Made by a program: the position numbers and the translations under genes. 64,000 bases of DNA from positions 76,767 through 140,766 of the IMG/VR virus record IMGVR_UViG_3300034065_000151; one strand, given 5' to 3'. Source of the DNA: a virus. Taxonomy: Duplodnaviria; Caudoviricetes. The notes under the pieces were generated by a model. The model searched no databases, was not told the DNA's origin, and worked only from the letters and a program-made list of their open reading frames with translations. Shown here piece after piece: positions 1 through 51,477 of this stretch; the first letter of the stretch is position 1, and every line of letters begins with the position of its first letter.

Positions 1-110
1 TCTTTTGGGTCATGACTATATTTGTTCCAAACAATATCCGGTACAACTTCATCAGCTTGTTTATGACCATGAATTAAATGGGGATTTTTATGAAACTGAT
101 ATAGATTCAT
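1..110 (-). CDS. MNLY-family Tyr-rich repeat protein, N-terminal part (runs off the left edge; not in the ORF track)
   Basis: Manual translation from ATG at 110: MNLYQFHKNPHLIHGHKQADEVVPDIVWNKYSHDPK, the same leader as the 25346-29641 paralogs. Its ATG overlaps the tape-measure stop (TAATG). Confidence 0.85.
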   Translation of the reverse strand, partial: MNLYQFHKNPHLIHGHKQADEVVPDIVWNKYSHDPK

Positions 111-19570: not shown

Positions 19571-20946
19571 CAACTATCACCGATCGTTTCCCAACCTTTA
19601 ATCCATTTATCATGGATGGTACCGTTGTATCCACTGCCGACCCAGATCAAATGGGACGTGTCCGTGTATGGGTTCCCGCTCTCGATGGTGATGACTTTGT
19701 TATCGAACAACTCGCTTGGGCCGAATATGTTTCCCCTCTCATGGGATTCACGGTCGACTATCAAGCAGGTGAAGGTAATGCACAAAATACTTCCCAAGCT
19801 GCCTATGGCTTCTGGGCAATACCTAAAGTTGGATCAGAAGTAATGATCTTCTGTAAAAATGGTGATCCTCGTAAACGTTGCTACTTCGCTGCCTCTATGG
19901 GACTTCATACCAACCGCTCACTTCCTGCTGGCCGTAATGTAGATACTCTCGGTAACCAAGGACCATTCGGTGACTCAGGTGATGGTACTGGTAAACTCAA
20001 CCCAATCCAACCAGCTTATAACAATCTCCGTACCCAATTCGAAAATAAGATCACTGCCTCTGAAGCACAAACTCGTGGCGCCTATGAACGCCAAGCTGCA
20101 CAACCCGGTGAAAATAAAGATGGCTCTGAAGGTTATTCCACATCACCAGCTGATGCAACCTACTTAGATCCACAAACTTACTGTCTTGTTACTCCTGGTC
20201 GTAATGCAATCATCCTTCAAGATGATCCAGCTCATGCCCGCTTACGTTTCAAGACTGCTGAAGGTCATCAGATCATCCTCGATGATGCCAATGAACGTAT
20301 CTATATATCCACCTCGCAAGGTGCCTCCTGGATTGAAATGGACCAAGACGGCCATATCAATATCTATGGTACAGATTCAGTCTCACTCCGCTCTGGTAAA
20401 GATATCAACTTCTATGCTGATGGTAATATCAACTTTGAAGCCAAAGGTGGTATCAATATGATTGCCGTTAATAATGATGTCAGAATTACAGCTGGTAGTC
20501 ATTTCCAAGTTCAGGCCACAAAGAATATAGTACAGACTGCATGTGGATTATTTGATGTGGATGCCGAGTCTGGTATGCATTTATCTGCCACTGGTAATAT
20601 TGATATGAAAGCCACTAATGCACTTAATGCAACTGGTATTGCTTCGATCGATATGAGAACTGGTGGTGACCTTAAAGCTACTGGTTCTAAAGGTGTTGAT
20701 ATCCTTGGTGGTCCAGTTAAAATTGGTGGACTTACTGTGGATATTGGTGCAACTGCCGGTAATGTTACTATCTCTGGTAATAGTGTCAGTATTGATGGTC
20801 CTCCTGCAATGCCTCCTACTTCAGCCCAAACTGCTGCCGGTGCTTCTTGTGCAGATCAAGCAACTGGACCAGCTATTGTTCCTGGACATGAGCCTTGGAC
20901 TAGACCTACATCAACCACCAAGCGTGGTCAGTACTGGAAACCATGA
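19567..20946 (+). CDS. gp5: central baseplate spike (gp5/VgrG-like)
   Basis: OB-fold DPDQMGRVRVWVP, PKVGSEV, GHQIILDD and beta-helix repeats. Confidence 0.85.
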   Translation: MTTITDRFPTFNPFIMDGTVVSTADPDQMGRVRVWVPALDGDDFVIEQLAWAEYVSPLMGFTVDYQAGEGNAQNTSQAAYGFWAIPKVGSEVMIFCKNGDPRKRCYFAASMGLHTNRSLPAGRNVDTLGNQGPFGDSGDGTGKLNPIQPAYNNLRTQFENKITASEAQTRGAYERQAAQPGENKDGSEGYSTSPADATYLDPQTYCLVTPGRNAIILQDDPAHARLRFKTAEGHQIILDDANERIYISTSQGASWIEMDQDGHINIYGTDSVSLRSGKDINFYADGNINFEAKGGINMIAVNNDVRITAGSHFQVQATKNIVQTACGLFDVDAESGMHLSATGNIDMKATNALNATGIASIDMRTGGDLKATGSKGVDILGGPVKIGGLTVDIGATAGNVTISGNSVSIDGPPAMPPTSAQTAAGASCADQATGPAIVPGHEPWTRPTSTTKRGQYWKP

Positions 20947-20975: not shown

Positions 20976-21003
20976 TAATACTTGATAACTATTTTGATTG
21001 ATT

Positions 21004-21372
21004 ATGGCTTCTAACTACATTGGATTCTCTACAGCACAATGGGGTAAAACTAAATCGTTTACCTTAACAGGTATCGACATCGTTAAACAAGACCTGCTTA
21101 ACCATATTTGGACAATCCAAGGTACCAGACTTATGATGCCAGCTTTTGGTACTCGTATTCCTATTCTTACCTTTGAACCAAATGATCCAATCACTATCAA
21201 TATCATCAAAGAAGATTTAACCACTGTATTCAATTACGATCCACGTGTTAATCTCATTGCTCTCAATGTAATGAGCATTCCTGCCAATAATACAATTATT
21301 GCTGCCGCTGATCTATTCTATGTTGAATATGGTATCACCCAATTATTTCAAATTGAAATTCCGTCCCAATAA
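21004..21372 (+). CDS. gp25: baseplate wedge subunit (gp25-like)
   Basis: GTRLMMPAFGT, FEP and YDPRV motifs; ATG at 21004. Confidence 0.9.
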   Translation: MASNYIGFSTAQWGKTKSFTLTGIDIVKQDLLNHIWTIQGTRLMMPAFGTRIPILTFEPNDPITINIIKEDLTTVFNYDPRVNLIALNVMSIPANNTIIAAADLFYVEYGITQLFQIEIPSQ

Positions 21373-21389
21373 TTAACCTACTATAAACT

Positions 21390-24300
21390 ATGACAATTAT
21401 TAACAAATACGCAGCTGAAAGTTGGGATAAGGTTTATACCGCATTCACTCAAATCAATTTCACTTCTTTCGACTACGATACTGTCAAAGAATCACTAATC
21501 CAATACCTGCAAATCTACTACGCTGAATCATATAACGATATGATCGAATCGTCAGAATTAATTGCTATTCTAGAAATGTTTGCATATGCTGCTGAATTGA
21601 TAACCTATCGTGTTGACATAGCTTCGCATGAGAACTTTATTACTACTGCCCAACGTAAGCAGTCTATTCTTCGTCTCGCTAAGTTAATTTCATATTCGGC
21701 TTCCCGTAATATCCCAGCTCGTGGTTTGGTTAAACTTAATACCGTTCGTACCGATCAAACTGTTTATGACTCCCTTGGTAATAACTTAGCCAATGTCACC
21801 ATCACCTGGAATGATCCATCTAATTCTAATTGGAAAGAACAATTCTTCTTGGTAATGAACCTGTCTCTTACCACCACCTTCGGCCAACCATCTAAATCAT
21901 TCCAAGTTGCTGATGTACTCATGCAACAGTATACTTTTAACAATAACTTAGCTGCCTTTAATAATGGTGTCTTTGCCTTCAATGCATCTACTACTACCCA
22001 GTCTGTGCAGATGGAAGCTGTCCCTATTGATATCGATGCTAATGGTCCATTTGAACGTTCACCTGACTTAAATGCACAATTCAATATTGTCTATGCTTCT
22101 GATGGCCGCGGTGACGGCTCTGATTATACTGGCTTCCTTCTTTTCGTTAAACAAGGTTCCTTACTTCAAACCAATTATGTTATCCCAGAACCTACTGCTA
22201 ATCGCCGTATTGAACTTGATGCCATCAATATCAATAACACAGACGTCTGGCTTTATGGTGTAGATAATACTGGTACCATTACAGAAAACTGGCTTCCTGT
22301 CAATACACTTAATGACCAAACCCTTGCATTTAATAACAATACTACAACCAGAAAACAATACTCTATTGATACCCTAGAGAATGACCGTATTGCTATTAAC
22401 TTCGGTGATGGTAACTTCAGCGATGCCCCAGTCGGTGCCTACCAAATCTGGACCCGTGTTTCTGCTAACCAAGATATTACCGTACAGAAACAACAGATTG
22501 TTAACCAGAAAATGTCTTTCACATACTTGGATAATACCAATGTGTCCCATGTGTTTAACATGACATTCTCTCTTACTTCATCACTTCAAAACAACTCTGC
22601 TTCTGAAACTATTGAACACGTTCGTCAATCTGCTCCATCCACCTATTACGCCCAAGATCGTATGGTTAATGGCCAAGATTACAATACCTATATGCTTAAG
22701 GATTCTACTATCCTTAAACTCAATACTATCAACCGTACCTTCGCCGGTCAACCAAAATACATAGAATGGAATGATGCCTCTGGTGCCTACCAAAACATCA
22801 AACTATTCGGTGATGACCTCACCATGAACCTATCCACTTCAGTTGATATGGTTTTGACAACTACTAGTTCCCAAAGTATTATTGATTCTTATATAGAACC
22901 ATTACTACAGACTAATGCTTTACTTAATACTTTAACCCATCAAATTGCAAGTGCGGCCGATAGTTATGGTATCATTTCCTATCCTCGACGTGTTTTCATC
23001 GAAGATAACCAAAAGGTCTACTTTGATATCAATGGTAACCCAGTCAATCCTTACGGTAGACAATTACCTTCACCCGCTCAAATAGCTGCTAATGCTGCAT
23101 CTCCTGCACCATTACCATTATCCCAGATTGGTACCCCTTTACATACTGGTGATGGTTCCCTATTAGAAAAGACTGTTATCCAAGGTGCACTTGATAATCA
23201 TTGGTATGGTTCACCTACCTCTACTGTTACTATTAATGGTACTATCTCAGGTGTTATTCCTGATCCTGTTGCCGATCCAAGTTCTGATAGCAATATCTAT
23301 GCACCTAATATGCCAAGAACTATTGATGGTGTCAATCTATATCCACCTGGTGATACTGGTTCTGGTTTCCAAAATATTAACCTTCAACAGTATTTCGGGT
23401 TGAAATATAACCGATTCCTACAGGCATTTGGTACTGGTGATATTGCCCTTTATAACGTGAATGACTTCGTGCTATTAACCCCACCACAATTACCACCAAC
23501 CCAGAACTGGGGATATGGTGATGGTGCACCCAATAGCATTACTAATTCAAATGGTACCCTTGATAGTTCTCATAATCCTGTACCTTGTCCATGTAATGGA
23601 TTGAATGCCTATAACTATAAAATGGAAGTCCTTACAATTGAAATGACTTCTGATAGTACTACCTTTGCTATTACCAGTAATATCCGTGGTACTTTGCCTA
23701 GCTATAGCCTTACTAAAGCCGCTTCTGTTACCAATCCACAACCACGCTGGTCACAACAATCTCCTACTGCAGTTCCTTGCGATTTCATTATTTCAAATGG
23801 TACTACTCAGTATAAGGCAGGTGATGCATTTGTCATCAATATTACGTTCCAAAATGGCCAATGGGGTTCCGTTGTTCGCTCATTCGGCACAAATAATGCA
23901 CATAAAGCTAACCTTTCAGGATGGTGGGAATTAATCCCAGAAACGGTCATTAATGGATCTACTGCTGAAGGTGGCTTAAACCTATTCACTCAAGGCGCTT
24001 CTGACGGTCCTAACTCAGTTCAAGCCATGACATTTGACCAAGGTTCAGCCGGATCATCATGGATATTCTTAGTCGCTTCAACTCTTTCCACCTCTGGAAC
24101 AGTTGCTAGCTGGTCTATCTATAACCGTGATATGAAGATCATTGCATCCAGTCCTACTACTAAGTTCTGGTTCAATACCGCTTCACAAATCCTTGACCCA
24201 CAAACCCTAAAACCTCTTTATGACAAGATTCGTATCCTTCGCTCTAACCTCGACGAACTCGGTATGCCTCTTAAACAAGCTGATATCTATGACTGCGTAA

Positions 24301-25346
24301 ACTTTGTCTATGATATCAATGGTGAAGTTATTACCAATTCCCTTGAATTACTTCCTACTGATACCAGTACATTCACCCTTGCCGGTAACGGTTCTCCTGA
24401 TAATATCCTTCAGTTCGAAAACTTTGCCCAGAACTCCTACCAGTTCACTGTCATCAATGTTACCGATCCTACTAATCCTATCATCGATAATGTCCTTAAC
24501 TGCTCAGACTATACCTATATCTCTGGCTATGATATGACACAATATGATATCAATGGCTATGACTCAGGCGTCATCTCAGTCACTGGATTCTCACAACCAT
24601 TCAACTTCATCCCCGGCTCTTTCATGTCATCCAATACAGTCAATGGATTCCAAATCGCCAGACAACTCTACGTACCAGCTCCTGCTGTTGTCAGTCCTAC
24701 TACTAACCAATACAGCTGTAATATCACTACTGGTCTTGATTTCATGTGGCAACATTACACTCCGGACTCTAACCTTATTGACCCATCACCAAGTAATATC
24801 CATGATGCCTTCTTGTTAACATCTGGCTATTATACATCGGTAATGGATTATGTGAATGGATTTACTACTGTAGCTCCACAGCCACCTACTCCTCTCGATC
24901 TATTAACTTCTTATGGTTACCTTCTCGAGAATAAGATGTTGTCTGATACACTTGTCCTTCATTCAGGTAAGATTAAACTTCTATTCGGTTCCCTTGCTGA
25001 TCAAACCCTTCGTGCTAAATTCAGTGTTATCATGGCACCTACTGCTACCTTCTCATCAGAACGTATCAAACAAGAAGTTATTAATACCATCAACACCTAT
25101 TTCACAATACAATCATGGGACTTCGGCCAATCCTTCTATGCTACCGAACTATTGTCTCTTATTCACCAAGCCTTACCTACACAGATTTCATCAGTAGTTA
25201 TTGTGCCCACCTATAGCGTTAACTCATTCGGCTCTCTATTCACTATCAATGCAGGCTTCGATGAAGTCCTTCAATCCTGCACCCAAGTAACAGATGTGGA
25301 GATTGTTGCTGCTTTAACACCATCAGTTATTAGACAGGTTGTTTAA
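21390..25346 (+). CDS. gp6: baseplate wedge subunit (gp6-like, enlarged)
   Basis: FTSFDYD, ENFITTAQRKQSILRLAKLISY, FGDG, ETIEHVR..AP..YYAQDRMV and WDFG motifs. Confidence 0.85.
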   Translation: MTIINKYAAESWDKVYTAFTQINFTSFDYDTVKESLIQYLQIYYAESYNDMIESSELIAILEMFAYAAELITYRVDIASHENFITTAQRKQSILRLAKLISYSASRNIPARGLVKLNTVRTDQTVYDSLGNNLANVTITWNDPSNSNWKEQFFLVMNLSLTTTFGQPSKSFQVADVLMQQYTFNNNLAAFNNGVFAFNASTTTQSVQMEAVPIDIDANGPFERSPDLNAQFNIVYASDGRGDGSDYTGFLLFVKQGSLLQTNYVIPEPTANRRIELDAININNTDVWLYGVDNTGTITENWLPVNTLNDQTLAFNNNTTTRKQYSIDTLENDRIAINFGDGNFSDAPVGAYQIWTRVSANQDITVQKQQIVNQKMSFTYLDNTNVSHVFNMTFSLTSSLQNNSASETIEHVRQSAPSTYYAQDRMVNGQDYNTYMLKDSTILKLNTINRTFAGQPKYIEWNDASGAYQNIKLFGDDLTMNLSTSVDMVLTTTSSQSIIDSYIEPLLQTNALLNTLTHQIASAADSYGIISYPRRVFIEDNQKVYFDINGNPVNPYGRQLPSPAQIAANAASPAPLPLSQIGTPLHTGDGSLLEKTVIQGALDNHWYGSPTSTVTINGTISGVIPDPVADPSSDSNIYAPNMPRTIDGVNLYPPGDTGSGFQNINLQQYFGLKYNRFLQAFGTGDIALYNVNDFVLLTPPQLPPTQNWGYGDGAPNSITNSNGTLDSSHNPVPCPCNGLNAYNYKMEVLTIEMTSDSTTFAITSNIRGTLPSYSLTKAASVTNPQPRWSQQSPTAVPCDFIISNGTTQYKAGDAFVINITFQNGQWGSVVRSFGTNNAHKANLSGWWELIPETVINGSTAEGGLNLFTQGASDGPNSVQAMTFDQGSAGSSWIFLVASTLSTSGTVASWSIYNRDMKIIASSPTTKFWFNTASQILDPQTLKPLYDKIRILRSNLDELGMPLKQADIYDCVNFVYDINGEVITNSLELLPTDTSTFTLAGNGSPDNILQFENFAQNSYQFTVINVTDPTNPIIDNVLNCSDYTYISGYDMTQYDINGYDSGVISVTGFSQPFNFIPGSFMSSNTVNGFQIARQLYVPAPAVVSPTTNQYSCNITTGLDFMWQHYTPDSNLIDPSPSNIHDAFLLTSGYYTSVMDYVNGFTTVAPQPPTPLDLLTSYGYLLENKMLSDTLVLHSGKIKLLFGSLADQTLRAKFSVIMAPTATFSSERIKQEVINTINTYFTIQSWDFGQSFYATELLSLIHQALPTQISSVVIVPTYSVNSFGSLFTINAGFDEVLQSCTQVTDVEIVAALTPSVIRQVV

Positions 25347-25693
25347 TGAACCTATATCAATTCCATACAATACCTGAGTCACTCCATAAACATGCAGTTG
25401 CTCAGGAAACTGTACCTGAACTCGTCTGGAAGAAATATAAAAATGATCCCGAAGAACTAAAGAAATATGAAAACGTTCTCGCTAAATCCCCACAATATGC
25501 CTGCCAATATGCTATTGATATTCTCGGTAAAGCTTTCCCTAAAGGTGAACCTGCTATCATGAAAGATGCCTGGTATGCAGCCTGGTATGCCATGGATATT
25601 AAAGATAAACGATGGAAAGCCGCCGAACCAACCATCTTCGACGACGAAGAAGCTGCTAAAGACTATATCCGCTACTTTGGAATCAATCGATGA
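25346..25693 (+). CDS. MNLY-family repeat protein (2 repeats)
   Basis: Shared leader and 26-aa repeats; TAATG overlap with gp6. Confidence 0.85.
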   Translation: MNLYQFHTIPESLHKHAVAQETVPELVWKKYKNDPEELKKYENVLAKSPQYACQYAIDILGKAFPKGEPAIMKDAWYAAWYAMDIKDKRWKAAEPTIFDDEEAAKDYIRYFGINR

Positions 25694-26217
25694 ACCTCTA
25701 CCAATTCCACGATCACCCTGAATCTATCCATAGCCACGATAAAGCAGATACTCATGTAGTAGATGTCTTCTGGAACAAATATAAAAATAACCCTAAAGAA
25801 CTAAAAACTAGAAAACATGCTATTACTAAATCTTCTAAATACTCTTTCTATTATGCCAGCGATATACTAAAAGGTAGATTCCCATTAGGTGAACCCGCCA
25901 TCGCCACTGATCCCTATCAAGCTAAAGACTATGCCACCACAATACTTAAAGGTAGATTCAAACTAGCCGAACCCACTATCGCTAAAAATAGCTATGCTTC
26001 TTATATCTATGCACTAAAGGTTCTCAAAGGTCCATTCAAATTAGGTGAACCTGCCATTCTTAAAGACCCAGAAGATGCATTACTATATGCTAAAAACGTT
26101 CTAAAGAAACCATGGCCTAAAGCTGAACCCATCATTGCATCCAATATCTGGACAACCATAGAATATAATACATCCTTTAATCAACACCTAGCATATACAC
26201 GTACCTATAAAATATAA
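25690..26217 (+). CDS. MNLY-family repeat protein (4 repeats)
   Basis: KGRFPLGEPAIATDPYQAKDYATTIL-type units. Confidence 0.85.
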   Translation: MNLYQFHDHPESIHSHDKADTHVVDVFWNKYKNNPKELKTRKHAITKSSKYSFYYASDILKGRFPLGEPAIATDPYQAKDYATTILKGRFKLAEPTIAKNSYASYIYALKVLKGPFKLGEPAILKDPEDALLYAKNVLKKPWPKAEPIIASNIWTTIEYNTSFNQHLAYTRTYKI

Positions 26218-26324
26218 ACTACTCATGGATAAAACTATTTTAAGTAATTGAGTGTTAACCAATAGTAATTTGTAGTAGGTTTTAGAAAAGTTAGTTTGTC
26301 CCTTTGAATCGAACGGAATCGAGA
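26218..26324. other. candidate replication origin (G/C skew inversion point)
   Basis: AT-rich intergenic gap where the + strand switches from C-rich to G-rich; contains AGTAATT twice and GAATC three times. Confidence 0.5.
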
Positions 26325-26780
26325 ATGAATCTTTACCAGCTCCACTCAGCACCAACCAGCATATATGGACATGACAAAGCGCATGAGACAGTACCTGAAC
26401 TTATCTGGAAGAAGTATGAAGGTAACCCTGACCAAGATGAGCAGCTCAAGAGGTATGAGGACATCCTTGCAAAGGATCCTGGGTATGCTTACAAGTATGC
26501 ATTCCTGATTCTTAAGAAACCCTTTCCTAAGGGTGAGAAGGCGATTGCAACCAGTCCTGAATATGCTTTTAACTATGCTCTACATGTCCTTAAAGGACCA
26601 TTTAAAGCAGGAGAACCAGCTATATCCAAGGATGCTTATTATGCAGTATGGTATGCTGTGGACGTCTTAAAGAAGCGGTTTCCTATGGCAGAAGACTTGA
26701 TATATGATGATTATGACCTAGCCATTGAGTACAATAGTATGTTACATAAGCATGATATAAAGATCCCACATCGACCATAA
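26325..26780 (+). CDS. MNLY-family repeat protein (3 repeats)
   Basis: Start placed at ATG 26325 by homology of the MNLY leader. Confidence 0.85.
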   Translation: MNLYQLHSAPTSIYGHDKAHETVPELIWKKYEGNPDQDEQLKRYEDILAKDPGYAYKYAFLILKKPFPKGEKAIATSPEYAFNYALHVLKGPFKAGEPAISKDAYYAVWYAVDVLKKRFPMAEDLIYDDYDLAIEYNSMLHKHDIKIPHRP

Positions 26781-26803
26781 GTAAACCTTTTATTATATCA
26801 CAT
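26781..26803 (-). promoter_or_regulatory. antisense sigma70-like motif, copy 1
   Basis: GTAAACCTTTTATTATATCACAT, which reads TGATATAAT on the minus strand. Confidence 0.5.
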
Positions 26804-26865
26804 GATAAGTAATAAGTGTAGTAAGTGTAGTAAATATAGGAACTGTTGGATGATAATATCCTAAG

Positions 26866-26888
26866 TGAAACCTTCTATTATAACATAA
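26866..26888 (-). promoter_or_regulatory. antisense sigma70-like motif, copy 2
   Basis: TGAAACCTTCTATTATAACATAA, which reads TGTTATAAT on the minus strand. Confidence 0.5.
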
Positions 26889-26904
26889 AAATTGGAACTG
26901 ATGT

Positions 26905-27273
26905 ATGAAAGTTGCAGAATTATTTGAGGCCCGGATTAAGTATAAGCGTCCAGATTTCCAGGAAGAATGGAATGAGGCGCAACGTTATCCTGAACTTAAG
27001 AAGCTTGGTAAACAAGGATGGATTAAGTTAGTTAATGATGGACAGATTGTTAATAGTAAGACCTTATTAAATATAGGTAATATTGATTTAGATTTATCTG
27101 GTTTGGATAAGGCGAAGTTAGCCAGAGCTGAAGCGAGTATTAATAAGGGTGAGGTAGAGTTACCTATAGTGGTTAAGATTAATGGTAAGTATGATTTGCT
27201 TGGTGGTAATACCCGCTTTGCATATATGAAATCAAAGGGTATCAATCCTATAGTATGGTTAATTAAGATATGA
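26905..27273 (+). CDS. ParB/sulfiredoxin N-terminal domain protein
   Basis: ELPIVVKINGKYDLLGGNTR motif; N-terminus MKVAELFEA. Confidence 0.7.
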   Translation: MKVAELFEARIKYKRPDFQEEWNEAQRYPELKKLGKQGWIKLVNDGQIVNSKTLLNIGNIDLDLSGLDKAKLARAEASINKGEVELPIVVKINGKYDLLGGNTRFAYMKSKGINPIVWLIKI

Positions 27274-27761
27274 ATTTATATAAGCTACATGACAAACCTG
27301 AGAGTATCCATGGACATGATAAGATGGATACCCATGTCATCGATGCATTCTGGGATAAGTACAAAGATAATCCTGCTGAATTAAAGAAGCGTGAGAAAGC
27401 AATTGCTAAACATACAGAGTATGCACATCATTATGCCAATATATTAAAGGGACCATTCCCAGCTGGAGAAGATGCTATTGCTAAAGATGCATTTAGTTCT
27501 TTATATTATGCTGGGAGTATATTGAAGGGACGGTTTCCTAAGGGAGAGAAGGAAATAGCAAAGTATCCAGGATATGCTTATAGGTATGCTGAGTATGTAT
27601 TGAAAGGGCCTTTCAAATTAGGTGAGGATGCGATATCAAAGAATCCTGAGTATGCTTTTAAGTATGCTTATTATATATTAAAGAAGAAATGGTCTAAAGG
27701 AGAGGATGCGATTAATAAGGATCCATACTTTAAGGAAAGATATGCAAGGGAATTTAAATGA
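27270..27761 (+). CDS. MNLY-family repeat protein (4 repeats)
   Basis: Shared leader and repeats; ATGA overlaps. Confidence 0.85.
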   Translation: MNLYKLHDKPESIHGHDKMDTHVIDAFWDKYKDNPAELKKREKAIAKHTEYAHHYANILKGPFPAGEDAIAKDAFSSLYYAGSILKGRFPKGEKEIAKYPGYAYRYAEYVLKGPFKLGEDAISKNPEYAFKYAYYILKKKWSKGEDAINKDPYFKERYAREFK

Positions 27762-28333
27762 ATCTATATGATATGCATCATGATCCTAAGAGTATCCATA
27801 AACATGATGAAGCCGATATGACAATACCTAAAGTGTTTTGGGATAGGTATAATCATATGCCATCTGAATTAGAGAAACGTGAAGCAGCCCTCGCAAAGAG
27901 TCCTGAGTATGCTTACTATTATGCCAGGGAAGTATTAGATAAACGTTTCCCTAAAGGAGAAGCTGCCATTGCGACAAGTCCTAAGTATGCATATTATGCG
28001 TATTATGTGATAGATGGAAGGTTTCCTGTGGGAGAACCTGCTATAGCAAAGGATATAAAATACAGTGTGAATTATGCTATCCATGTAATACATGAGGAGT
28101 TTCCATTAGGGGAAGATATTATAGCGACTGATGTAGAGTATTCATATGAGTATGCATATGGATTGGGTAAAGTATTTAAGAAGGGTGAAGCTAAGATAGC
28201 AACAAATGCCGAGTATAGTTGTCTTTATGCTCTGTGGGTATTAGGAAAGAGATTCCCATTAGGAGAACCTGTGATAGCCAAAGATCTTCATTATAAACAT
28301 GAATACAATAAACAGTTTGGAACTAACCTATGA
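27758..28333 (+). CDS. MNLY-family repeat protein (5 repeats)
   Basis: Shared leader and repeats. Confidence 0.85.
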   Translation: MNLYDMHHDPKSIHKHDEADMTIPKVFWDRYNHMPSELEKREAALAKSPEYAYYYAREVLDKRFPKGEAAIATSPKYAYYAYYVIDGRFPVGEPAIAKDIKYSVNYAIHVIHEEFPLGEDIIATDVEYSYEYAYGLGKVFKKGEAKIATNAEYSCLYALWVLGKRFPLGEPVIAKDLHYKHEYNKQFGTNL

Positions 28334-28953
28334 ACTTTTATAAACTACATGATGAACCGGAAAGCATTCATAAGTACCAGGAAGCTTTAGATAAAGTAGT
28401 AGATGTATTCTGGCATAAATATAAAAATGATCCTGTTAAATTAAAAGAACGGGAACCAGAGATTGCTAAATCGGCAAAGTATAGTTATGCATATGCCTTT
28501 GGGGTATTACATAAAAGGTTTCCTGCAGGGGAAGCAGCTATATCTAAAGTACCACAGACAGCATATAATTATGCCAAGAATATAATACAGGGACCATGGC
28601 CAGAAGGAGAAGATGCCATTGGTAAAGAATCATACTTTGCTTACTATTATGTAGAAGAATACCTTAGGAAGAAGTTCCCTAAGGGAGAAGCTGCGATCGC
28701 AAAGGATCCATATTATGCTGCTGAGTATGCAAGGATAACAGGACAACCTTTTAAGGCAGGTGAGAAGGCAATTGCTACTAACAATTATGCATCGTATATC
28801 TATGCGAGGGATGTATTGAAGAAGCCATGGAAGCCTGGAGAGGCAGCTATCTTGAATGATAAGGATGGTACCGAATACAGTGAGAACTATATGAAGTTTT
28901 GTAATGAATGGTATGCTAACCAGAAGAAAAACAAAGGATCTAAAGATGAATGA
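28330..28953 (+). CDS. MNLY-family repeat protein (5 repeats)
   Basis: Shared leader (MNFY variant) and repeats. Confidence 0.85.
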   Translation: MNFYKLHDEPESIHKYQEALDKVVDVFWHKYKNDPVKLKEREPEIAKSAKYSYAYAFGVLHKRFPAGEAAISKVPQTAYNYAKNIIQGPWPEGEDAIGKESYFAYYYVEEYLRKKFPKGEAAIAKDPYYAAEYARITGQPFKAGEKAIATNNYASYIYARDVLKKPWKPGEAAILNDKDGTEYSENYMKFCNEWYANQKKNKGSKDE

Positions 28954-29203
28954 AAGTAAACCTATTATTATAACACATTGTGCAGATGATGTATATGATA
29001 AATTTTGGCGTAAGCAGAAACCAAACACCAGGGTATGTATTGATTCCTATGAGAATGAGATAGCAAAGATACCAGGACATGCTTGTGCTTATGCTAAGTA
29101 TGTATTGGGTGGAAGGTTTCATAAGGGAGAGAATGCTATCTATAGTGATTTGCATACTTCTGCTATCTATATACATTTCTTGGAGTCCTTGAATGATCAG
29201 TAA
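28946..29203 (+). CDS. degenerate MNLY-family member (1 repeat, leader replaced)
   Basis: VYDKFW..YENEIAKIPGHACAYAKYVLGGRFHKGENAI; the 5' end coincides with antisense motif copy 3. Confidence 0.6.
   Translation: MNESKPIIITHCADDVYDKFWRKQKPNTRVCIDSYENEIAKIPGHACAYAKYVLGGRFHKGENAIYSDLHTSAIYIHFLESLNDQ
28956..28978 (-). promoter_or_regulatory. antisense sigma70-like motif, copy 3
   Basis: GTAAACCTATTATTATAACACAT, 21/23 identical to copy 1; TATACA at the -35 position with a 17-nt spacer. Confidence 0.5.
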
Positions 29204-29291
29204 AGTCACTGCCGATAAGATTAGATATAGCTTCCTTATATTCTGGACCATATACCTAATTGCTAATGCTATCAAATGGATGGTATCATGA
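29193..29291 (+). CDS. 32-aa hydrophobic peptide (not in the ORF track)
   Basis: MISKVTADKIRYSFLIFWTIYLIANAIKWMVS; GGAG Shine-Dalgarno; ATGA overlap with the next gene. Confidence 0.45.
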   Translation: MISKVTADKIRYSFLIFWTIYLIANAIKWMVS

Positions 29292-29641
29292 ACCTTTATA
29301 CATTACATGATCATCCTGAAAGTATCCATGGACATGATAAAAAGGATTCACGAGTACCTGAACTCATTTGGGCCAAATATAAAAAAGATCCTGCTAGTAT
29401 GAAAAAATATGAATCAGTACTCGCAAAGGATTCTCATTATGCTTACCTCTATGCCGCCAATATCCTCAGACATAAATGGTTAAAGGGAGAACCTGCGATA
29501 GCTAAAGATGCAACATGTTCCTGGGAATATGTTATGCATGTATTAAAGAAGCCATTTCCTAAAGGAGAGAAGGCTATCCTTGGTAGTTCCTTTGCAGATG
29601 CATATAGATTAAACCTAGAAATATATAAAGATAAAGAATAA
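29288..29641 (+). CDS. MNLY-family repeat protein (2 repeats)
   Basis: Start placed at 29288 by leader homology. Confidence 0.85.
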   Translation: MNLYTLHDHPESIHGHDKKDSRVPELIWAKYKKDPASMKKYESVLAKDSHYAYLYAANILRHKWLKGEPAIAKDATCSWEYVMHVLKKPFPKGEKAILGSSFADAYRLNLEIYKDKE

Positions 29642-29700
29642 AAGCATTATGCTGTACACAAGTATCAAAGAATAGCAGTTTTTATAGTTTCCTGGAATCC

Positions 29701-29708
29701 GATAAATA
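29701..29708 (+). promoter_or_regulatory. late promoter variant GATAAATA
   Basis: Upstream of the 2855-aa gene. Confidence 0.5.
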
Positions 29709-29744
29709 TAGATACCTATCTCATCTATCATTCTCCAGGAAACT

Positions 29745-32700
29745 ATGTCACAGAATTTAGACTTCAATAAGCTCCTTCCATCAGGCATACAAAACGAAAC
29801 ACTATCTAGTCTGGTCTCTAACCTGTTCAACCGCTTTGTCTCCACAGAACAATCTGTTAACATCGCAGGTACAGTCGGTATCCCTATCTCTGGTAATGCA
29901 ATCATCCAACAACCTTCTCTCGATCGCCAAGAGAATGCCCTAGTCCCCAGTCTCTTCTACCAATCAGGTAATAAAAAATACCTATACACCTTCGAAGACT
30001 TTGTTAATAAGATGGCAACTCTTGATATTGATATCCAGGATATGAGAACCTGGATGGCTGAGCAGAGTTATAATTATTCCCCGCCTATTGACTATGATAA
30101 GTTTATTAGCTATTCTAATTACTATTGGACAGGATCATCCTTACCAGCCGGATCGGGACCTTCATGGAATCCTAATAACGTATCCGAGTTTTATGTAATA
30201 GAACGTCCTGCTCTTAATGACACTACAAAGATGCCGGTGGTTGCTGCGACCACCTTTAACATTAATTTGTATGCAAACAATCGTCCACCTGAAACCTTTA
30301 TCATTCAGTTCAGTTCACCTACCCAGTTCCACATTGCAAGTAACCTTGGTGCGGTTACATCAAGTGTTACCACCTTGGTATCTACTACCCCAGAAGATAT
30401 TACTCCAGTCATTATATCTGTTATCGATCCTGTCTTAGGACCTGGTAGTACTAACCTTGTTAGCTTTAATATCATTAATGGTACTAACCTATTCAATACC
30501 GGTGATTACTTTACCCTTAACATTAACTACTTCACCAGTTCTTTATTCGCTACTCTATCTCCAGGTACTACTATCAATCAAGGTGCCATTGCTTCTATCC
30601 AATCACTATCTCCTATGATGATCATCGATGGTGTACGTATTACTTCCGGTATGCGTATCCTCGTGAAGAACCAAACTGTACCTACCCAGAACGGTATCTA
30701 CATCGTATCAACAGGTAATCCTTGGTCTCTTGCTACTGATTCGACAACTACTAATCTTATTATTAACTCTGCAGTATATGTGACTAAGGGTTTGCTTAAC
30801 ATAGGAACCACTTGGAAGTATGACAATACGAATCACTTTGTGGAGGTCGTACCTAATCCTGTACCTAATGTGAATGCGTGGCAGTTGTATAACTATTGGG
30901 TACACAAAGATGATCTTAATAGTTTGGCACAGTTTGGTATCTCACAGAGTAATAGTATCCAGGCAAACCGTCCTATCATTGAGTACACTAATAAGTTACA
31001 GATGAACAAGTTCTTTGATAGTACAGATACCCCAAGTGATTCTGGTATCTCTTACCTACAAACAAAGACTCGCTTCAATCAGATACCACAGTTCGATCTA
31101 TATCGTTACGATGGTACACACGCAGGTATGACCTCCGGACTATTCTTCTATGCAGAAGGTCCTAACTATATAACAGACAACATATTACTCCGTAGAGTAG
31201 TAACTACATCGACAGGTGATTATGTATTCGGCATTGGTCTTACTGACAGTCAAAATCAATTTCTTTACTTTAAAGACAATGGCACGCTTAAATCTATCTG
31301 GCAACCCGGTGTTACAACCGCTACTGCATCTACTCCATTATATAATGGGACTGGTAACGGATCTATAACAATCACCCCTACTACCACTGCTGATAACCAA
31401 GAGTGGACAATCACCTGTCTTACTCCTATAACCTTCTCAGTCAATGGTACACGTTCAGGTTCCATCGGTACACTTACCATCGGTACTACCTTTACCTGTG
31501 ATGATCTTACACTCGGCATTACAGCAGGTACAACTCCATTCATTCCAGGTGACAACTTCTCCTTCGATGTATGGGCTCCTGTATCTCCTCGCTACATCAA
31601 ACAAAACCCAGATGGTTCCATCGTAAACTATCCAGGTGGATATGCTGCTGATCAAGCAACTGCTAATCCAAGTGGTGCGTGGTTGACACCAGGACGTATG
31701 TTCCAGAACTTGAGTCGTGAGTTGCAGCCTACTATTGCCTTTGGTGATTTCATTAACCATGGTCGTGCAGTCTTGAGATTGCAGGATGGTTTTACTGGTG
31801 CTTCATTCGGTGATAACAATAGTAGAACACTATCATTCAATCCTGGACTGGGTGGACGGATCAGAGAGTTCTCTAGTAACTTCCCATTGCTTGCCAGTAT
31901 GTTAATTGAACAGGATATATCTGTTCTTACTATCCTGGACTTCATCCAACAACAATACAATATCGGATTGGCAAGTATCACCCAGTTCGTTAACAACTCT
32001 TTGGCTGAGTACTTAGGTCAAGGTCATATCATTAACACAACCACCATCGATCCTAACGATCCAAGTATAGTTTCTTTTGAACAATACTTTGAAACCTTAC
32101 GTGGTCAGAATATGAATTTGAGTACTGTGTTTAGTGATAGTACTGCGTTGGTAAAGAATTGGCCGGCGACATTACCGATGATAGGATTGTTACCGAAGGT
32201 ACAGCCTACTATTGGGTTTGATGATGAGTTGAATATCCATACCATTGTGCATCATGATAATCATATTTCACCGGTGGTATTACCTAATGTTGAGTTTGAT
32301 AAGATGTTAGTTAAGACAGTAGTAGATCGTCCTGATGGAACAAAGAGTCCTGGTACCTTTGCACAGTTCGCTCCAGCTAATCCTTATCCTGGTCAACTCT
32401 GGATGCAAACTTCTACACAGTTGTTATATGTGTACTATCCAACTGGTTGGATATTATTCAATAGTAGTTACCTACAGAACAGTTTAGTGTTAGCAGTTGA
32501 ACAAAGGTTATATGATAGTGTACATCCTGCCCAGCAGTTGAATCTTAATCTTGAGACCGTACCTGTTACTACATCCCAGTATCAAGCAGTTGAGTTAGCA
32601 CAGTTCGCGGCAGAGTATAACTATGATATGTTTGCTCCTGACTATGTTGCTACTAATGCATTTACCTGGAACTATAAGCAGGCAGTAGTACCTGGATTGG

Positions 32701-35700
32701 TGGGACCTACTCCTGCCCGTTGGTATGATTTATACAATGATTACTTTGACAACTTTGGATCAGGTGTCTTGGCGACTGACCGACCTGATTTATATCCATG
32801 GAGATTATTAGGATATGCAACCGAGCCCGCTAACTGGGCAAGTTTATATGCATGTACTGTTCAAGCGACAAGTAATGTAGTAACAGCAATTGTGTGTGCT
32901 AATAGTAATGATGGTTCTTTGAATGGTTTAGGTATCATTGATGGTTATAATTTAAATACTGGTGATCGTGTATTATTAACTGCACAGACTAATCATACAG
33001 AGAATGGATTATGGATAGCAGGACCTGGTGCTTGGGGTCGTGCAAGTGATCCATTAGTGGATGGCTTAACTGTTAATGTCACTAGTGGTTCACAATGTGC
33101 AGGAACTACTTGGGTAATCACTACACCTAATCCTATCCTATTAGGAACTACTCCTGTAACATTCCAACAAGCAAGAATCTGGAACATCAATATGTGGGCT
33201 AGTATCCATGCCACACATCCTACCTTAAAACGTTGTGTTAATATTAACACTGATATGTTATTACCGCCATATGTATCGTCAACAATACCTGCATCATTAG
33301 ATGCATTATTGACAGTGATCCCTGTAGGAATATCTGATGGGTATGTATTTGGGGATAATGGTCCTATTGAATTGGTATGGAGAAAGTCATTAGAGTATAA
33401 CTATGGATTGGCCCGTAGTTATTTTAGGTTATATCCATTACAGTTCTTGGATAAGTCATGGGGTGAAACCTATATGTCAGTTGGAACTAACCTTCGTACT
33501 GAGCGTAACCTAATGACATCATTACCAAGTAGTAATTTCTTATTGCATGGAGAACGTCTTACCATCAGTAATGTATACACACCTGCTGAGATACAAGCCA
33601 GAGTCCAAGGTCCTATTACCTGGACAGGAGCTGCTAATGTTTCCTTTGTGGTTACCCATTGTGCAGATAATACAACTGTCTTTTATGCATATGTGAATGG
33701 TCAGCTTCAAGGTATGGTCTATGAAGAAGTACCATTCTCCTTTAGTTATACCGATCCTGTAACTGGTGCAGTGATATCTTTTGTTAATAATGTTATAGAA
33801 GATTTAGGTATCCCTTTCAATATGGGTGATACTATCAACATCACCTTCTACAATGATATAGTAGATCCATCCTATGTTCCACCTGTTGCTAATCCACTAG
33901 GAGAACAAGGCTGCGTCATTCCTGGTATAGTTACCACAGTAACAACTATTCCAATGGTACAGGTGTTACCGACATATGTGCATGTACCAGCGACTACAAA
34001 GATTTTTAAGGGTGTGGGTCAGTGGTTTACCAATTTGATTAGATACAATAGTATAGACAGTGTAGTATCATTGACAGCAGAAGCGTATCGTGGATGGAGT
34101 GTTAACTTAGTGAATCGTATTGGATCATTGATGCGTCCTGATTCATTGGCGATTAATACTGCCCAAGGAGTTATGCCAGATACCGGATATAGTGTGGTCT
34201 TGAAGAAGTCCAGCAATACAAAGAGTCTATGGATCAGCGGACTACGTATCCAATTAACAAAGGTAGGAGCTGCCACATTAACAGCACCTGGATATTATGT
34301 ACCTGTTGGGGTTGGTGCTGATTGGGTATTCCGTGTTGAGGTTTACAATAATGCATATCCTCAGGCGACGTATTATGTATTGGATACTGCTGGACCTTAT
34401 GAGACCTTTAATGTATTGGATCAGAGTGCTACCAAGTTAGCATGGAATCGATATATGAATGTATTGAGTACTGAGACGATAGTAATGCCGTTACAGATAA
34501 CTGGTATACAGAATGTGATTAACTTTGTTTATGGATATAGTAATTACTTGCAGGATCAGGGTTTCAAGATTAATGCAAGTGATGTACCGATGACAGATCA
34601 ATTGACTGGACGTAATATCGATTGGCAGTTAGAGATAGAGAAGTTTATTAATCAGGTATACTTAGAGATGTCACCTGGACAAGGTACCATCTTAAATCCA
34701 TTTATGGATAAGTTATATGTACAGACTCCTATTGGGTTGCAGAGTCCATATACCGAATCTAATTTCATGGATGCCTTCTCTACCCAAGCATGTTATGATG
34801 TTATCGGAAGTATAATCCCAGTTAATAAATTGAATGTGATTAGGACTGATGATCAGACTATAACGTATTCACAGACACCTATCTATAGTGCGCATATCTT
34901 CTTGGATGAGTATGAGCATGCGATTGTGTTTAACGATAACTTTTCAAGTGATCCTGCATCAGCTACAGTCTTTAATAGTTTCTTGGGTGAGTATATGCAG
35001 ACTGTATACTTAACCTTCTCCCGTCAGGATGTTGTCGATAGTAAACCTACCTTCGATGGCTTCTTCCTATCAGGTGATAATGTAGCCCGTAACTTTACCG
35101 CAGCCACAGATAATATTGCTAACTATTATGATTCTGACAAGACCTTTAATGATCCAGTAACTGCGCAGCATGCAATGTCTCTGGTAGGATTTCAGACCAA
35201 GGATTACTTTGATCAGATTGATATAAGTCCTACAACCCAGTTGAATTTCTGGAAGGGTATGATTGCAGCTAAAGGAACTAACCTTACTATTGATGCCTTT
35301 GCAAACTATGTTGCGTTTAACAATACATCGACCGATGAATTTTGGGCATACAAGTTAGCAACATATGGTGATGCACGTGAACGTACTATGCCAGAGTTGA
35401 AAGTACAACCAGCGGATGTAGTGGGAACCTTTACCCAGTTACAGTTCTATTCTGCGAGTGATCCAAATTATGTGCCATTGCCATTATATACACAGGTGGA
35501 AGCGAATGATGATACCCGTTGGTATTCTATCGATGATTTAGGAACTACCTTAAGGTTTGATGCCAATGCAATAAGTGAATCTGTTACAGTAACAGGAACT
35601 GGTGTACAGTATATTACCTTGAAGAATATCTATCATAATGGTGACACAATGGCACCAGTAGTAACTGGACCTTCTGGTGCCAGTATTGTATCTGCGAATA

Positions 35701-51226: not shown

Positions 51227-51477
51227 TTATATAATGATTTCCAACTTGTTTTTGGGTCAGCTTCGATTTCCTTAATACAGTTATCTAAACTGGTACTCCA
51301 ACTTGGATCATTAAATTTTCCCATTCTATCTGCTATATTAACACAATTTACCCATGCTTCATTACGAGCAGTAAGGATATCAAGTTTCTTTTGCATATTA
51401 AGTTTTTGCATATTAAGCTTTCCCCCAAATCCGTTTACCTTCGATAGATACAAATTCACCATCAAAGTATTCTTCAT
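51223..51477 (-). CDS. hypothetical protein (start uncertain)
   Basis: Convergent ORF containing a short KLNMQ duplication. Confidence 0.45.
   Translation of the reverse strand: MKNTLMVNLYLSKVNGFGGKLNMQKLNMQKKLDILTARNEAWVNCVNIADRMGKFNDPSWSTSLDNCIKEIEADPKTSWKSLYN

What the first reader, a model, noticed from the sequence alone, without database searches (positions are those of the whole stretch)
25346..29641. Array of variable Tyr-rich 26-aa repeat proteins between baseplate genes
Seen: eight paralogs, seven with the leader MN(L/F)YxxHxxPxS(I/L)(H/Y)x(H/Y)...WxxY, carrying 2, 4, 3, 4, 5, 5, 1 and 2 copies of a unit like KG(R/P)FPxGExAIAKxPxxAxxYAxxxL. Framework positions are conserved while the xx positions vary and are rich in Tyr. 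I do not recognise the repeat as ankyrin, TPR or PPR. Inference: a helical-solenoid binder repertoire diversified by repeat shuffling, with the His-rich leader as a common docking or metal-binding tag. Candidate roles are anti-defence factors, virion-attached adaptors or nucleic-acid readers.
Basis: partly seen in the sequence, partly recalled or inferred. Interest (0 to 1): 0.85.

Follow-up and report, generated by a model that had tools for sequence, protein, structure and literature searches.

The report
Phage array of tyrosine-faced solenoid proteins
Eight neighbouring genes of an uncultured giant T4-like phage encode small helical-repeat proteins of a large, unnamed family known almost only from uncultured phages. 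Their tyrosine-rich surface and repeat number change quickly between related phages, so they are probably a panel of protein binders, but what they bind is unknown.

Summary
Eight same-strand paralogs lie at 25346-29641, and three more lie elsewhere in the 140-kb phage fragment. Each is an N-cap, 1-5 copies of a 26-residue two-helix repeat, and a C-cap. AlphaFold gives a confident all-helical solenoid (pLDDT 96) with no specific match among solved or viral structures.

The repeat has no Pfam or PHROG model. A profile still finds 6,865 cluster representatives, and the nearest atlas clusters are all viral. Tandem arrays of 9 to 30 or more copies occur in other large phages, at varied genome positions.

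The closest cultured phage, RsoM2USA, has none, and its two flanking genes are adjacent, so the array is an insertion. A close metagenomic relative with 96%-identical flanks carries 14 members. Its orthologs are only 77-84% identical (dN/dS 0.21-0.30 against 0.05-0.10 for the flanks). Exact one-repeat indels and chimeric genes are seen.

Variable positions fall on one face of helix B, where Tyr is 27%. I found no reverse transcriptase or template repeat, so this is not a DGR. The "leader" is the module's N-cap, not a metal or docking tag.

The most likely function is a fast-evolving panel of protein-binding modules, with the target untested. The scan has noted analogous phage repeat families on other DNA.

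The parts
21390..25346 (+). Upstream flank: gp6-like baseplate wedge gene (1318 aa). Its stop overlaps the A1 start by 1 nt.
   Evidence: phrog_10646 baseplate wedge, E 1.8e-242. 56% aa identity to the RsoM2USA homolog. 96% aa identity to the L004 ortholog, dN/dS 0.047.
25346..25693 (+). A1, 115 aa: N-cap, 2 repeats, degenerate C-cap.
   Evidence: (E 4e-46). The first ~235 nt are still collinear with L004 at 89%, then the sequences diverge.
25690..26217 (+). A2, 175 aa: N-cap, 4 repeats, C-cap. ATGA overlap with A1.
   Evidence: (E 2.9e-70).
26325..26780 (+). A3, 151 aa: N-cap, 3 repeats, C-cap. The ORF is open from TTG 26304; ATG 26325 is chosen by homology of the leader.
   Evidence: Ortholog L004 R4: 77% aa identity, dN/dS 0.30.
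26779..26803 (.). Copy 1 of a 25-nt intergenic motif (AAGTAAACCT.TTATTATA.CACAT). Its reverse complement carries TGATATAAT.
   Evidence: family D14; 3 matches against 0.2 expected.
26864..26888 (.). Copy 2 of the motif (more diverged), 17 nt upstream of the ParB_N-like ORF.
26905..27273 (+). Unrelated 122-aa ORF inside the array, weakly ParB_N-like. L004 carries a different 91-aa ORF here (BubE hit on record).
   Evidence: PF02195 E 0.034, below threshold. No PHROG. Cassette difference.
27270..27761 (+). A4, 163 aa: N-cap, 4 repeats, partial C-terminal unit.
   Evidence: (E 2.2e-70). Ortholog L004 R5 (= P0005): 78% aa identity, dN/dS 0.21.
27758..28333 (+). A5, 191 aa: N-cap, 5 repeats, C-cap. 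This is the protein that was modelled.
   Evidence: AF2 pLDDT 96.2, pTM 0.87, 17 helices. Ortholog L004 R6: 78% aa identity, dN/dS 0.24.
28330..28953 (+). A6, 207 aa: N-cap, 5 repeats, C-cap with a Lys-rich tail.
   Evidence: Ortholog L004 R7: 84% aa identity, dN/dS 0.24.
28954..28978 (.). Copy 3 of the 25-nt motif, lying inside the 5' end of the A7 reading frame.
   Evidence: In L004 and L005 the same motif sits after R7 and 18 nt upstream of an intact family gene. On the minus strand it scores as a sigma70-like site, TATACA-17-TATAAT with TG.
28946..29203 (+). A7, 85 aa (99 aa from ATG 28904): a 5'-truncated copy lacking the first ~20 leader residues, with 1 full repeat. Possibly a remnant.
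   Evidence: (E 3.2e-12).
29288..29641 (+). A8, 117 aa: N-cap, 2 repeats, C-cap. It is a chimera of the N-cap and a late repeat of L004 R9 with the C-cap of R14.
   Evidence: DNA collinearity 29192-29463 with L004 10339-10610 (90%) and 29552 onward with L004 13283 onward (86%). Protein comparison.
29745..38312 (+). Downstream flank: 2855-aa virion structural protein.
   Evidence: phrog_10938 virion structural protein, E 5e-74, plus Ig-like tail-fibre or decoration domains. 91% aa identity to L004 over the N-terminal ~1,500 aligned residues, dN/dS 0.095.
1..110 (-). 5' part of paralog B3 (84 aa; G000 76622-76876), which runs off the window start. It lies directly downstream of the 938-aa tape-measure or tail-lysin-like gene (110-2926, minus strand).
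   Evidence: (E 1.2e-31).

Best explanation
The array is a lineage-specific expansion of a large, so far unnamed protein family known almost only from uncultured phages. Each member is a self-contained capped alpha-solenoid. It has a ~40-residue N-cap (the 'leader'), 1-5 copies of a 26-residue helix-turn-helix unit (consensus GE.AIAK.P.YA..YA..VLKGRFP.) and a C-cap (..EY...F). The framework residues (G1, E2, A4, I5, A6, A12, Y15, A16, V19, L20, F24, P25) build the core and turns. Positions 10, 13, 14, 17, 18 and 21 line one face of the long helix B and form a continuous, Tyr-rich, fast-changing stripe. The array has been inserted into a late structural operon, between the gp6-like wedge gene and a giant virion protein gene. 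It evolves by unequal recombination between repeats and between genes (repeat indels, gene gain and loss, chimeras) and by raised amino-acid substitution on the variable face. Those steps are shown. The next step is inferred: the proteins act as a panel of protein-binding modules that each grip a different host (or phage) protein through the Tyr-rich face. That would make them host-takeover or counter-defence accessory proteins, not building blocks of the baseplate.
For: Fold: AF2 gives pLDDT 96.2 and an all-helical model with a short helix A and a long helix B per unit. The ESM Atlas model is independently confident. Only generic solenoid matches appear, with Z no higher than 6.5. Family size: the profile finds 6,865 representatives at E<=1e-3 and 1,676 at E<=1e-30. 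The nearest atlas clusters are 100% viral and unnamed. Insertion: RsoM2USA has the gp6-like and giant genes adjacent and no family member in its 344 kb. Turnover: L004 has 14 members between 96%-identical flanks, against 8 here. L004 and L005 differ by an exact 26-aa unit in an otherwise identical gene. A8 is a chimera. Selection: dN/dS is 0.21-0.30 for four ortholog pairs against 0.05-0.10 for the flanks, at similar dS. Framework columns give 0.12, variable columns 0.31 and the five hypervariable columns 0.41. Amino-acid differences are 47/185 at variable columns against 20/241 at framework columns, Fisher p 2e-6. One face: the variable positions span helical-wheel angles 300-80 degrees and the framework positions 140-280 degrees. 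Tyr is 27% on that face against 3.7% background. Tyr-rich surfaces are typical of protein-binding paratopes (established knowledge). Modular use: in long proteins the same repeats are fused to ankyrin, guanylate kinase, 2H phosphoesterase and (weakly) PARP domains. Not tied to baseplates: other phages carry arrays next to topoisomerase, helicase, RNA ligase, tail sheath or head genes.
Against: No binding partner is known and no experiment exists. dN/dS stays below 1 even at the hypervariable columns, so positive selection is not shown; relaxed constraint on a surface would look similar. In this phage all three sites holding paralogs are inside tail or baseplate modules, co-oriented and start/stop-coupled with structural genes. 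That fits late expression, which is unusual for host-takeover genes and also fits a virion-associated role. The mapping of variable residues to one face rests on helix periodicity and DSSP, not on inspected coordinates. Expression timing is unknown: no TATAAATA late promoter lies inside the array.
Confidence: 0.6

Rival explanations
1. Virion-associated accessory proteins: adaptors, decorations or assembly chaperones of the baseplate or tail. They would be made late with the structural genes, with the variable face contacting variable tail-fibre or receptor-binding parts.
For: A1's start overlaps the gp6-like stop, and the array is co-oriented with the operon. The other paralogs follow the tail sheath/tube cluster and the tape-measure-like gene. 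In other phages members sit near tail genes (L002; L011 tail sheath) and inside the head module of a 622-kb T4-like phage.
Against: The closest cultured phage builds the same baseplate without any member. Gene number varies from 8 to 14 between phages with 96%-identical wedge proteins. Other arrays sit next to topoisomerase, helicase, RNA ligase or an aminotransferase/QueC-like (phrog_10428/phrog_1550) gene. The held fragment is largely the structural half of the genome, so proximity to structural genes is expected by chance.
Confidence: 0.2
2. Capsid-packaged, injected 'internal proteins': the conserved N-terminal leader acts as a targeting sequence like the T4 capsid-targeting sequence (CTS), and the solenoids are delivered with the DNA to neutralise host defences.
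For: The leader starts exactly at Met1 and is better conserved than the body among paralogs. It loosely resembles the T4 CTS, with an aromatic at position 4, then Q-F and a later Glu. B1 and B2 sit within a cluster of about 15 genes that carry this phage's own CTS-like leader. The comparison with T4 internal-protein loci, which are hyperplastic, rests on established knowledge.
Against: The phage's own leader is MITFKQFL.E with a T4-type L-x-E site. The family leader, MNLY..H..PE, differs and lacks L/I at position -3. Other subfamilies have a different leader or none. In natural fusions the leader recurs internally, once per module, as expected of a structural cap. AF2 models it as ordered (pLDDT 82-95).
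Confidence: 0.08
3. Sequence-reading nucleic-acid binders of the PUF/PPR/TALE type, with one repeat reading one base through the variable residues.
For: The architecture is modular, with 2-5 variable positions per repeat and abundant Tyr, which can stack on bases. Some paralogs are basic, with pI 9.0-9.5. VIA-align lists Pumilio and PPR-like mitoribosomal proteins among weak matches, Z 4-5.
Against: Five of the eleven paralogs are acidic (pI 5.7-6.5) and two more are near neutral (pI ~7.0). Only 1-5 repeats are present, too few for specific reading. No conserved basic stripe is seen. The structural matches are no better than those to generic HEAT/ARM or designed repeats.
Confidence: 0.05
4. 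Diversity-generating retroelement (DGR) target genes: the variable positions would be rewritten by a reverse transcriptase from a template repeat.
For: Only the pattern of conserved framework with variable positions.
Against: No RVT_1 match at E<=1 in the 140-kb fragment. The best DNA repeat between the array and the rest of the genome is 81% over 57-60 nt. Variable codons are not adenine-specific differences from a template. Orthologs differ by ordinary substitutions with dS about 0.5. Only about 40% of the genome is held, so a distant RT cannot be excluded.
Confidence: 0.02

Closest known systems
HEAT-like / ARM alpha-solenoids, including the artificial alphaRep binder scaffold (PMC5703948) and designed helical repeat proteins (e.g. 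PDB 5cwk, 5h7c, 9k7u)
   Same: Stacked two-helix repeats with dedicated N- and C-caps. Framework residues are conserved, and a handful of variable positions lie on one helix face and form the binding surface. These are the best structural matches (Z 5-6.5).
   Different: The unit is only 26 residues, against 31-47 for those families. No sequence match to any HEAT, ARM, TPR, Sel1 or ankyrin model at E<=1 or to any solved chain. TM-scores are low. This family is natural and known almost only from uncultured phages.
Pfam DUF4116 (PF13475)
   Same: As I recall it (not tested here), DUF4116 is a ~25-residue helical half-repeat with a similar pattern (..E..I.A...P.YA..YA...L). It gives one sub-threshold hit on A4 (12.5 bits, E 0.11). 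Its function is also unknown.
   Different: The hit is below the 24.9-bit cut-off. A six-frame search of the genome gives nothing at E<=10. Long family members show no DUF4116 hit.
Pfam HTH_35 (PF13693, YdaS-like winged HTH), the source of the JGI label 'lambda repressor-like predicted transcriptional regulator'
   Same: Profile positions ~19-49 resemble one repeat unit. In long proteins, summed partial hits push the score over the threshold (up to 52 bits).
   Different: No single stretch passes on its own, only a third of the profile is matched, and the fold is a solenoid and not a winged helix. The label is an artefact.
Ankyrin-repeat and other repeat multigene families of poxviruses and giant viruses (host-range factors and substrate adaptors)
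   Same: Lineage-specific tandem expansions of small repeat proteins, with variable repeat number, rapid gene turnover and a presumed role in binding host proteins.
   Different: A different repeat and a different virus realm. No F-box/PRANC-type effector domain is present. The function here is untested.
T4 internal proteins IPI-IPIII and their hyperplastic locus
   Same: Small, fast-turning-over accessory genes of T4-like phages that share a conserved N-terminal leader. This genome does use a T4-like capsid-targeting leader on other genes.
   Different: The family leader is not that sequence and behaves as a structural cap. Packaging has not been shown.

Membership tests
Unnamed phage 26-residue solenoid family (defined here by alignment A2) | Tandem 26-aa units with the GE.AI...P.YA..YA..(V/I)L.G.FP framework, matched by the family profile | tested here: met
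   All 8 array genes and 3 more in the genome score E 3e-12 to 1e-75. 32 units aligned. Homologs P0001-P0031 found. 6,865 representatives found.
Unnamed phage 26-residue solenoid family (defined here by alignment A2) | Capped all-helical solenoid fold | tested here: met
   AF2 pLDDT 96.2, pTM 0.87, 17 helices in an A/B pattern. The atlas model has pTM 0.79.
HTH_35 (PF13693) | Score over the 25-bit gathering cut-off, with a stretch covering the 75-position winged HTH | tested here: not met
   Best 24.3 bits (A6). No stretch passes on its own, and only profile positions ~20-50 match.
DUF4116 (PF13475) | Score over the 24.9-bit cut-off | tested here: not met
   12.5 bits, E 0.11 on A4 only. No six-frame match at E<=10 in the genome.
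Ankyrin / TPR / PPR / HEAT / Sel1 / LRV repeats | Match to the Pfam repeat models | tested here: not met
   No such family at E<=1 for any of the nine proteins. No solved chain at E<0.1 with the family profile.
Ankyrin / TPR / PPR / HEAT / Sel1 / LRV repeats | Specific fold match standing above the background of helical repeats | tested here: inconclusive
   Best Z is 6.5, to a designed repeat and to the PP2A A subunit. This is within the range the tool calls common for helical repeats. Foldseek E>=0.59.
DGR variable proteins | Reverse transcriptase plus a near-identical template repeat with adenine-specific differences | tested here: not met
   No RVT_1 match. Best internal DNA repeat is 81% over 57-60 nt. 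Only ~40% of the genome is held.
T4-type capsid-targeted internal proteins | The phage's own ~10-residue CTS ending in (L/I)-x-E at the N-terminus | tested here: not met
   This genome's CTS is MITFKQFL.E, found on 15 ORFs. The family starts MNLY..H..PE, and its leader is internal in fused forms.
T4-type capsid-targeted internal proteins | Presence in the capsid and processing by the prohead protease | not testable with these tools
   Needs virion proteomics.

The most novel reading that the evidence does not exclude
These arrays are a natural, phage-encoded binder library. The scaffold is a minimal 26-residue solenoid whose Tyr-rich face is diversified by repeat and gene recombination. Large T4-like phages would use it as an adaptable repertoire to neutralise varying host defence or takeover targets, with the same module serving as the aiming part when fused to enzymes. 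If so, it would be a widespread, undescribed counter-defence strategy and a ready-made small binder scaffold.
Probability: 0.3. Interest if true: 0.8.

Novelty: new variant of a known kind. Interest (0 to 1): 0.6.

Why it matters
The repeat has thousands of relatives in uncultured large phages, yet no family model, no name, no structure and no paper that I could find. Some databases mislabel it as a lambda-repressor-like regulator. Single phages devote up to 30 or more genes to it. Between near-identical phages the genes differ by whole repeats and whole genes, which is the signature of genes engaged in a conflict or in changing recognition. Defining the family would correct the annotation. 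It would also give a target list for finding what large phages bind in their hosts, and it offers an unusually small capped solenoid as a possible binder scaffold.

Tried and rejected
- **Cultured-phage searches.** blastn and tblastn against 50,697 phage records found nothing for the region, nothing for A5, and only E 0.08 to Salicola phage SCTP-2 for A4.
- **PHROGs.** No family for the paralogs except weak phrog_28193 and phrog_769 hits.
- **Fold searches.** Foldseek against PDB gave nothing at E<0.5. BFVD gave one uncharacterised uncultured-phage protein (E 0.009, TM 0.55). VIA-align wide gave only generic repeats. The atlas fold library was unavailable.
- **PDB by profile.** Nothing relevant.
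- **DGR.** No RT and no template repeat.
- **DUF4116.** Not met.
- **Prokaryote genomes.** A single-protein scan gave two hits on 2.7- and 5.4-kb contigs of Pacearchaeota and Omnitrophota MAGs, most likely mis-binned phage DNA.
- **Promoters.** The T4 late promoter TATAAATA is absent from the array. The sigma70 and terminator scan was not enriched over shuffles.
- **Literature.** Searches found no description of the family. One search failed on a short term.
- **Not run.** No complex prediction, because no candidate partner has any support beyond gene neighbourhood. I could not inspect model coordinates, so the one-face claim rests on DSSP and helix periodicity.

Full report
**Setting.** The window is bases 76767-140766 of a 140.8-kb IMG/VR virus record that CheckV rates about 40% complete. 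The genes around the finding are those of a large T4-like myovirus:
- a gp5/VgrG-like hub (19567-20946);
- gp25-like (20998-21372);
- a 1318-aa gp6-like wedge protein (21390-25346; phrog_10646, E 1.8e-242);
- after the array, a 2855-aa virion structural protein.

The nearest cultured phage by the wedge protein is the 344-kb Ralstonia jumbo phage RsoM2USA, at 56% aa identity.

Eight same-strand ORFs fill 25346-29641. The DNA period is 78 nt, and copies are only 60-83% identical.
- In 32 aligned units G1, E2 and Y15 are invariant. A4, I5, A6, K7, A16, L20 and F/W24 are strongly conserved. Positions 10, 13, 14, 17 and 18 carry the highest entropy.
- Tyr makes up 27% of the variable face (positions 10, 11, 13, 14, 17 and 18), against 3.7% in the phage's other long ORFs.
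- An unrelated 122-aa ORF with a weak ParB_N-like match interrupts the array at 26905-27273.
- A7 lacks about 20 leader residues. A 25-nt intergenic motif lies in its 5' end, and in a relative that motif precedes an intact gene, so A7 looks like a 5'-truncated copy.
- Three more paralogs lie elsewhere in the record, at G000 50699-51058, 51055-51570 and 76622-76876 on the minus strand.

**Fold.** With a 38-sequence alignment, AlphaFold2 models A5 at mean pLDDT 96.2 and pTM 0.87. The model is a stack of a short helix A (GE.AIAK) and a long helix B (.YA..YA..VL.), preceded by a helical N-terminal region and closed by a C-terminal helix. The ESM Atlas holds an independent confident model with pTM 0.79.
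- Foldseek finds no solved structure at E<0.5.
- An exhaustive VIA-align search gives only generic HEAT, ARM or designed-repeat matches with Z no higher than 6.5. The tool itself rates that range as common for helical repeats.
- BFVD returns only one uncharacterised uncultured-phage protein.

On a helical wheel the variable positions 10, 13, 14, 17, 18 and 21 occupy a 140-degree arc. The framework positions 12, 15, 16, 19 and 20 occupy the opposite arc. The variable residues therefore form one stripe along the B-helix layer. I could not inspect coordinates, so this rests on DSSP and periodicity.

**Family.** Pfam gives only sub-threshold hits: HTH_35 at up to 24.3 bits and DUF4116 at 12.5 bits. 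PHROGs gives essentially nothing. The word-indexed search found 31 unnamed metagenomic homologs, about two-thirds of them with the same MNLY..H..P start.
- A profile search of 1.84 billion representatives found 6,865 proteins at E<=1e-3 and 1,676 at E<=1e-30. Many are long, up to 2,253 aa with 18 matched stretches.
- The nearest ESM Atlas clusters are 100% viral (Uroviricota) and unnamed.
- In the long proteins Pfam sees fused ankyrin, guanylate kinase plus DUF5754, 2H phosphoesterase and (weakly) PARP domains.
- HTH_35 crosses its threshold there only by summing partial hits. This explains the JGI name 'lambda repressor-like predicted transcriptional regulator', which is an artefact.
- No cultured phage in INPHARED carries the family, and RsoM2USA has none in its whole genome.

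**The array is an insertion and a hot spot.** In RsoM2USA the gp6-like gene is followed directly by the giant gene. A close metagenomic relative (L004, ENA GROS21 scaffold_510) has the same flanks at 92-96% aa identity but 14 family members between them. A second relative (L005) differs again.
- Only A3-A6 have orthologs there, at 77-84% aa identity. A1, A2, A7 and A8 do not.
- A8 combines the N-cap and a late repeat of L004 gene R9 with the C-cap of R14. That implies deletions within R9 and between R9 and R14.
- One L004 gene (141 aa) and its L005 counterpart (167 aa) are identical except for an exact 26-residue unit.
- The ParB_N-like cassette is replaced in L004 by a different 91-aa ORF.

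**Selection.** Nei-Gojobori estimates give dN/dS of 0.21-0.30 for the four ortholog pairs. The flanks give 0.047-0.10, at similar dS of 0.37-0.66.
- Split by repeat column, framework positions give 0.12, variable positions 0.31 and the five hypervariable columns 0.41.
- Amino-acid differences are 47/185 at variable columns against 20/241 at framework columns (Fisher p 2e-6).

The genes are therefore real and constrained, and their variable face changes several times faster than the rest. Omega above 1 is not shown.

**The leader.**
- His14 and His16 are not conserved in homologs.
- One 125-kb phage (IMGVR_UViG_3300031463_000001) has at least 30 members in three arrays, with a different leader, MNI.DLLKDP.K.
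- A 622-kb T4-like phage has nine tandem members with no common leader.
- In long natural fusions such as P0041 and P0034, each internal module carries its own leader.
- Residues 13-40 look like a degenerate capping repeat, and AF2 models them as ordered.

Paralogs B1 and B2 sit among those genes, but the family's leader is a different sequence.

**Where arrays sit elsewhere.**
- Next to topoisomerase and dNMP kinase: L006, 13 tandem copies.
- Next to an HNH endonuclease and tail sheath, an aminotransferase/QueC-like (phrog_10428/phrog_1550) gene, DNA helicases and an RNA ligase.
- Among tail genes: L002.
- In a head module: L017.

In this phage all three sites are inside tail or baseplate modules and are coupled to the upstream structural gene. 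The held fragment is mostly the structural half of the genome, so this is weak evidence. Baseplate adjacency is not a family trait.

**What was excluded.** No reverse transcriptase was found. No template-like repeat was found either, the best being 81% over 57-60 nt. DGR diversification is therefore rejected for the DNA held. Nucleic-acid reading is unlikely, because pI spans 5.7-9.5 and proteins have only 1-5 repeats. Literature searches found no description of the family.

**Conclusion.**
- Shown: this is a capped 26-residue alpha-solenoid family, widespread in uncultured large phages and without a name. Here it is expanded into a recombination-prone array inserted in a baseplate operon, with one fast-evolving Tyr-rich face.
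- Inferred, at about 0.55-0.6: the proteins are a panel of protein-binding modules aimed at host (or phage) proteins. This would be analogous to repeat multigene families of large eukaryotic viruses and to engineered alphaRep or DARPin binders.
- Main rival, at about 0.2: a virion-associated accessory role.

Earlier notes of this scan describe analogous phage repeat families with Tyr-rich variable faces on other DNA (29-residue repeats behind ART-like heads; 26-residue repeats in an Alt-like enzyme). I did not test whether they are related to this family.

Noticed in passing
window 26779-26803, 26864-26888, 28954-28978; L004 9776-9798; L005 2489-2511: A 25-nt intergenic motif (AAGTAAACCT.TTATTATA.CACAT) occurs three times in the array, against 0.2 expected, and is conserved after the A6 ortholog in two relatives. 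Its reverse complement reads TGATATAAT, an extended -10. At the third copy it forms a 10/12 sigma70-like site facing against the array. It could be an antisense early promoter or a cassette boundary.
   Followed up: partly
window 26905-27273; L004 7698-7973: The ORF interrupting the array is a 122-aa weak ParB_N-like protein (..LLGGNTRF..). At the same place the relative L004 carries an unrelated 91-aa ORF with a BubE (PF20137) hit on record. This is a cassette swap inside the array.
   Followed up: partly
G000 41941-63922 (outside the window, minus strand); L015: About 15 ORFs start with a T4-like capsid-targeting leader, M(I/L)(T/S)FKQF(L/I).E, followed by unrelated bodies. These are candidate head-packaged, injected proteins. 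Solenoid paralogs B1 and B2 lie among them.
   Followed up: partly
window 2957, 8631(-), 41418, 48711, 60394(-): The T4 late-promoter octamer TATAAATA sits in intergenic gaps just upstream of co-oriented structural genes, although the total count is not above chance. None lies in the array.
   Followed up: no
proteins P0041, P0034, P0100 (metagenomic): Long family members are head-to-tail concatenations of complete modules (leader, repeats, C-cap). Some keep an internal Met at each module start, and some are joined by poly-Lys linkers. They could be gene fusions of arrays or polyprotein-like forms.
   Followed up: partly
L018 (JAWALV010000031.1, Pacearchaeota MAG) and L019 (JAMWDA010000208.1, Omnitrophota MAG): The only family hits in 185,579 prokaryote genomes lie on 5.4-kb and 2.7-kb contigs of two MAGs. 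They are probably phage contigs binned by mistake.
   Followed up: no
window 24001-30000: GC skew flips from -0.27 in the wedge gene to +0.15 in the array, and AT skew rises to +0.10. This fits the Lys, Glu, Gly and Ala-rich (purine-rich) codons of the repeat, not a change of strand.
   Followed up: no
window 110-2926 (-) and 1-110 (-): A 938-aa tape-measure or tail-lysin-like gene is followed, start on stop, by the truncated one-repeat paralog B3 (84 aa), then by a 195-aa unknown ORF and the portal gene.
   Followed up: partly
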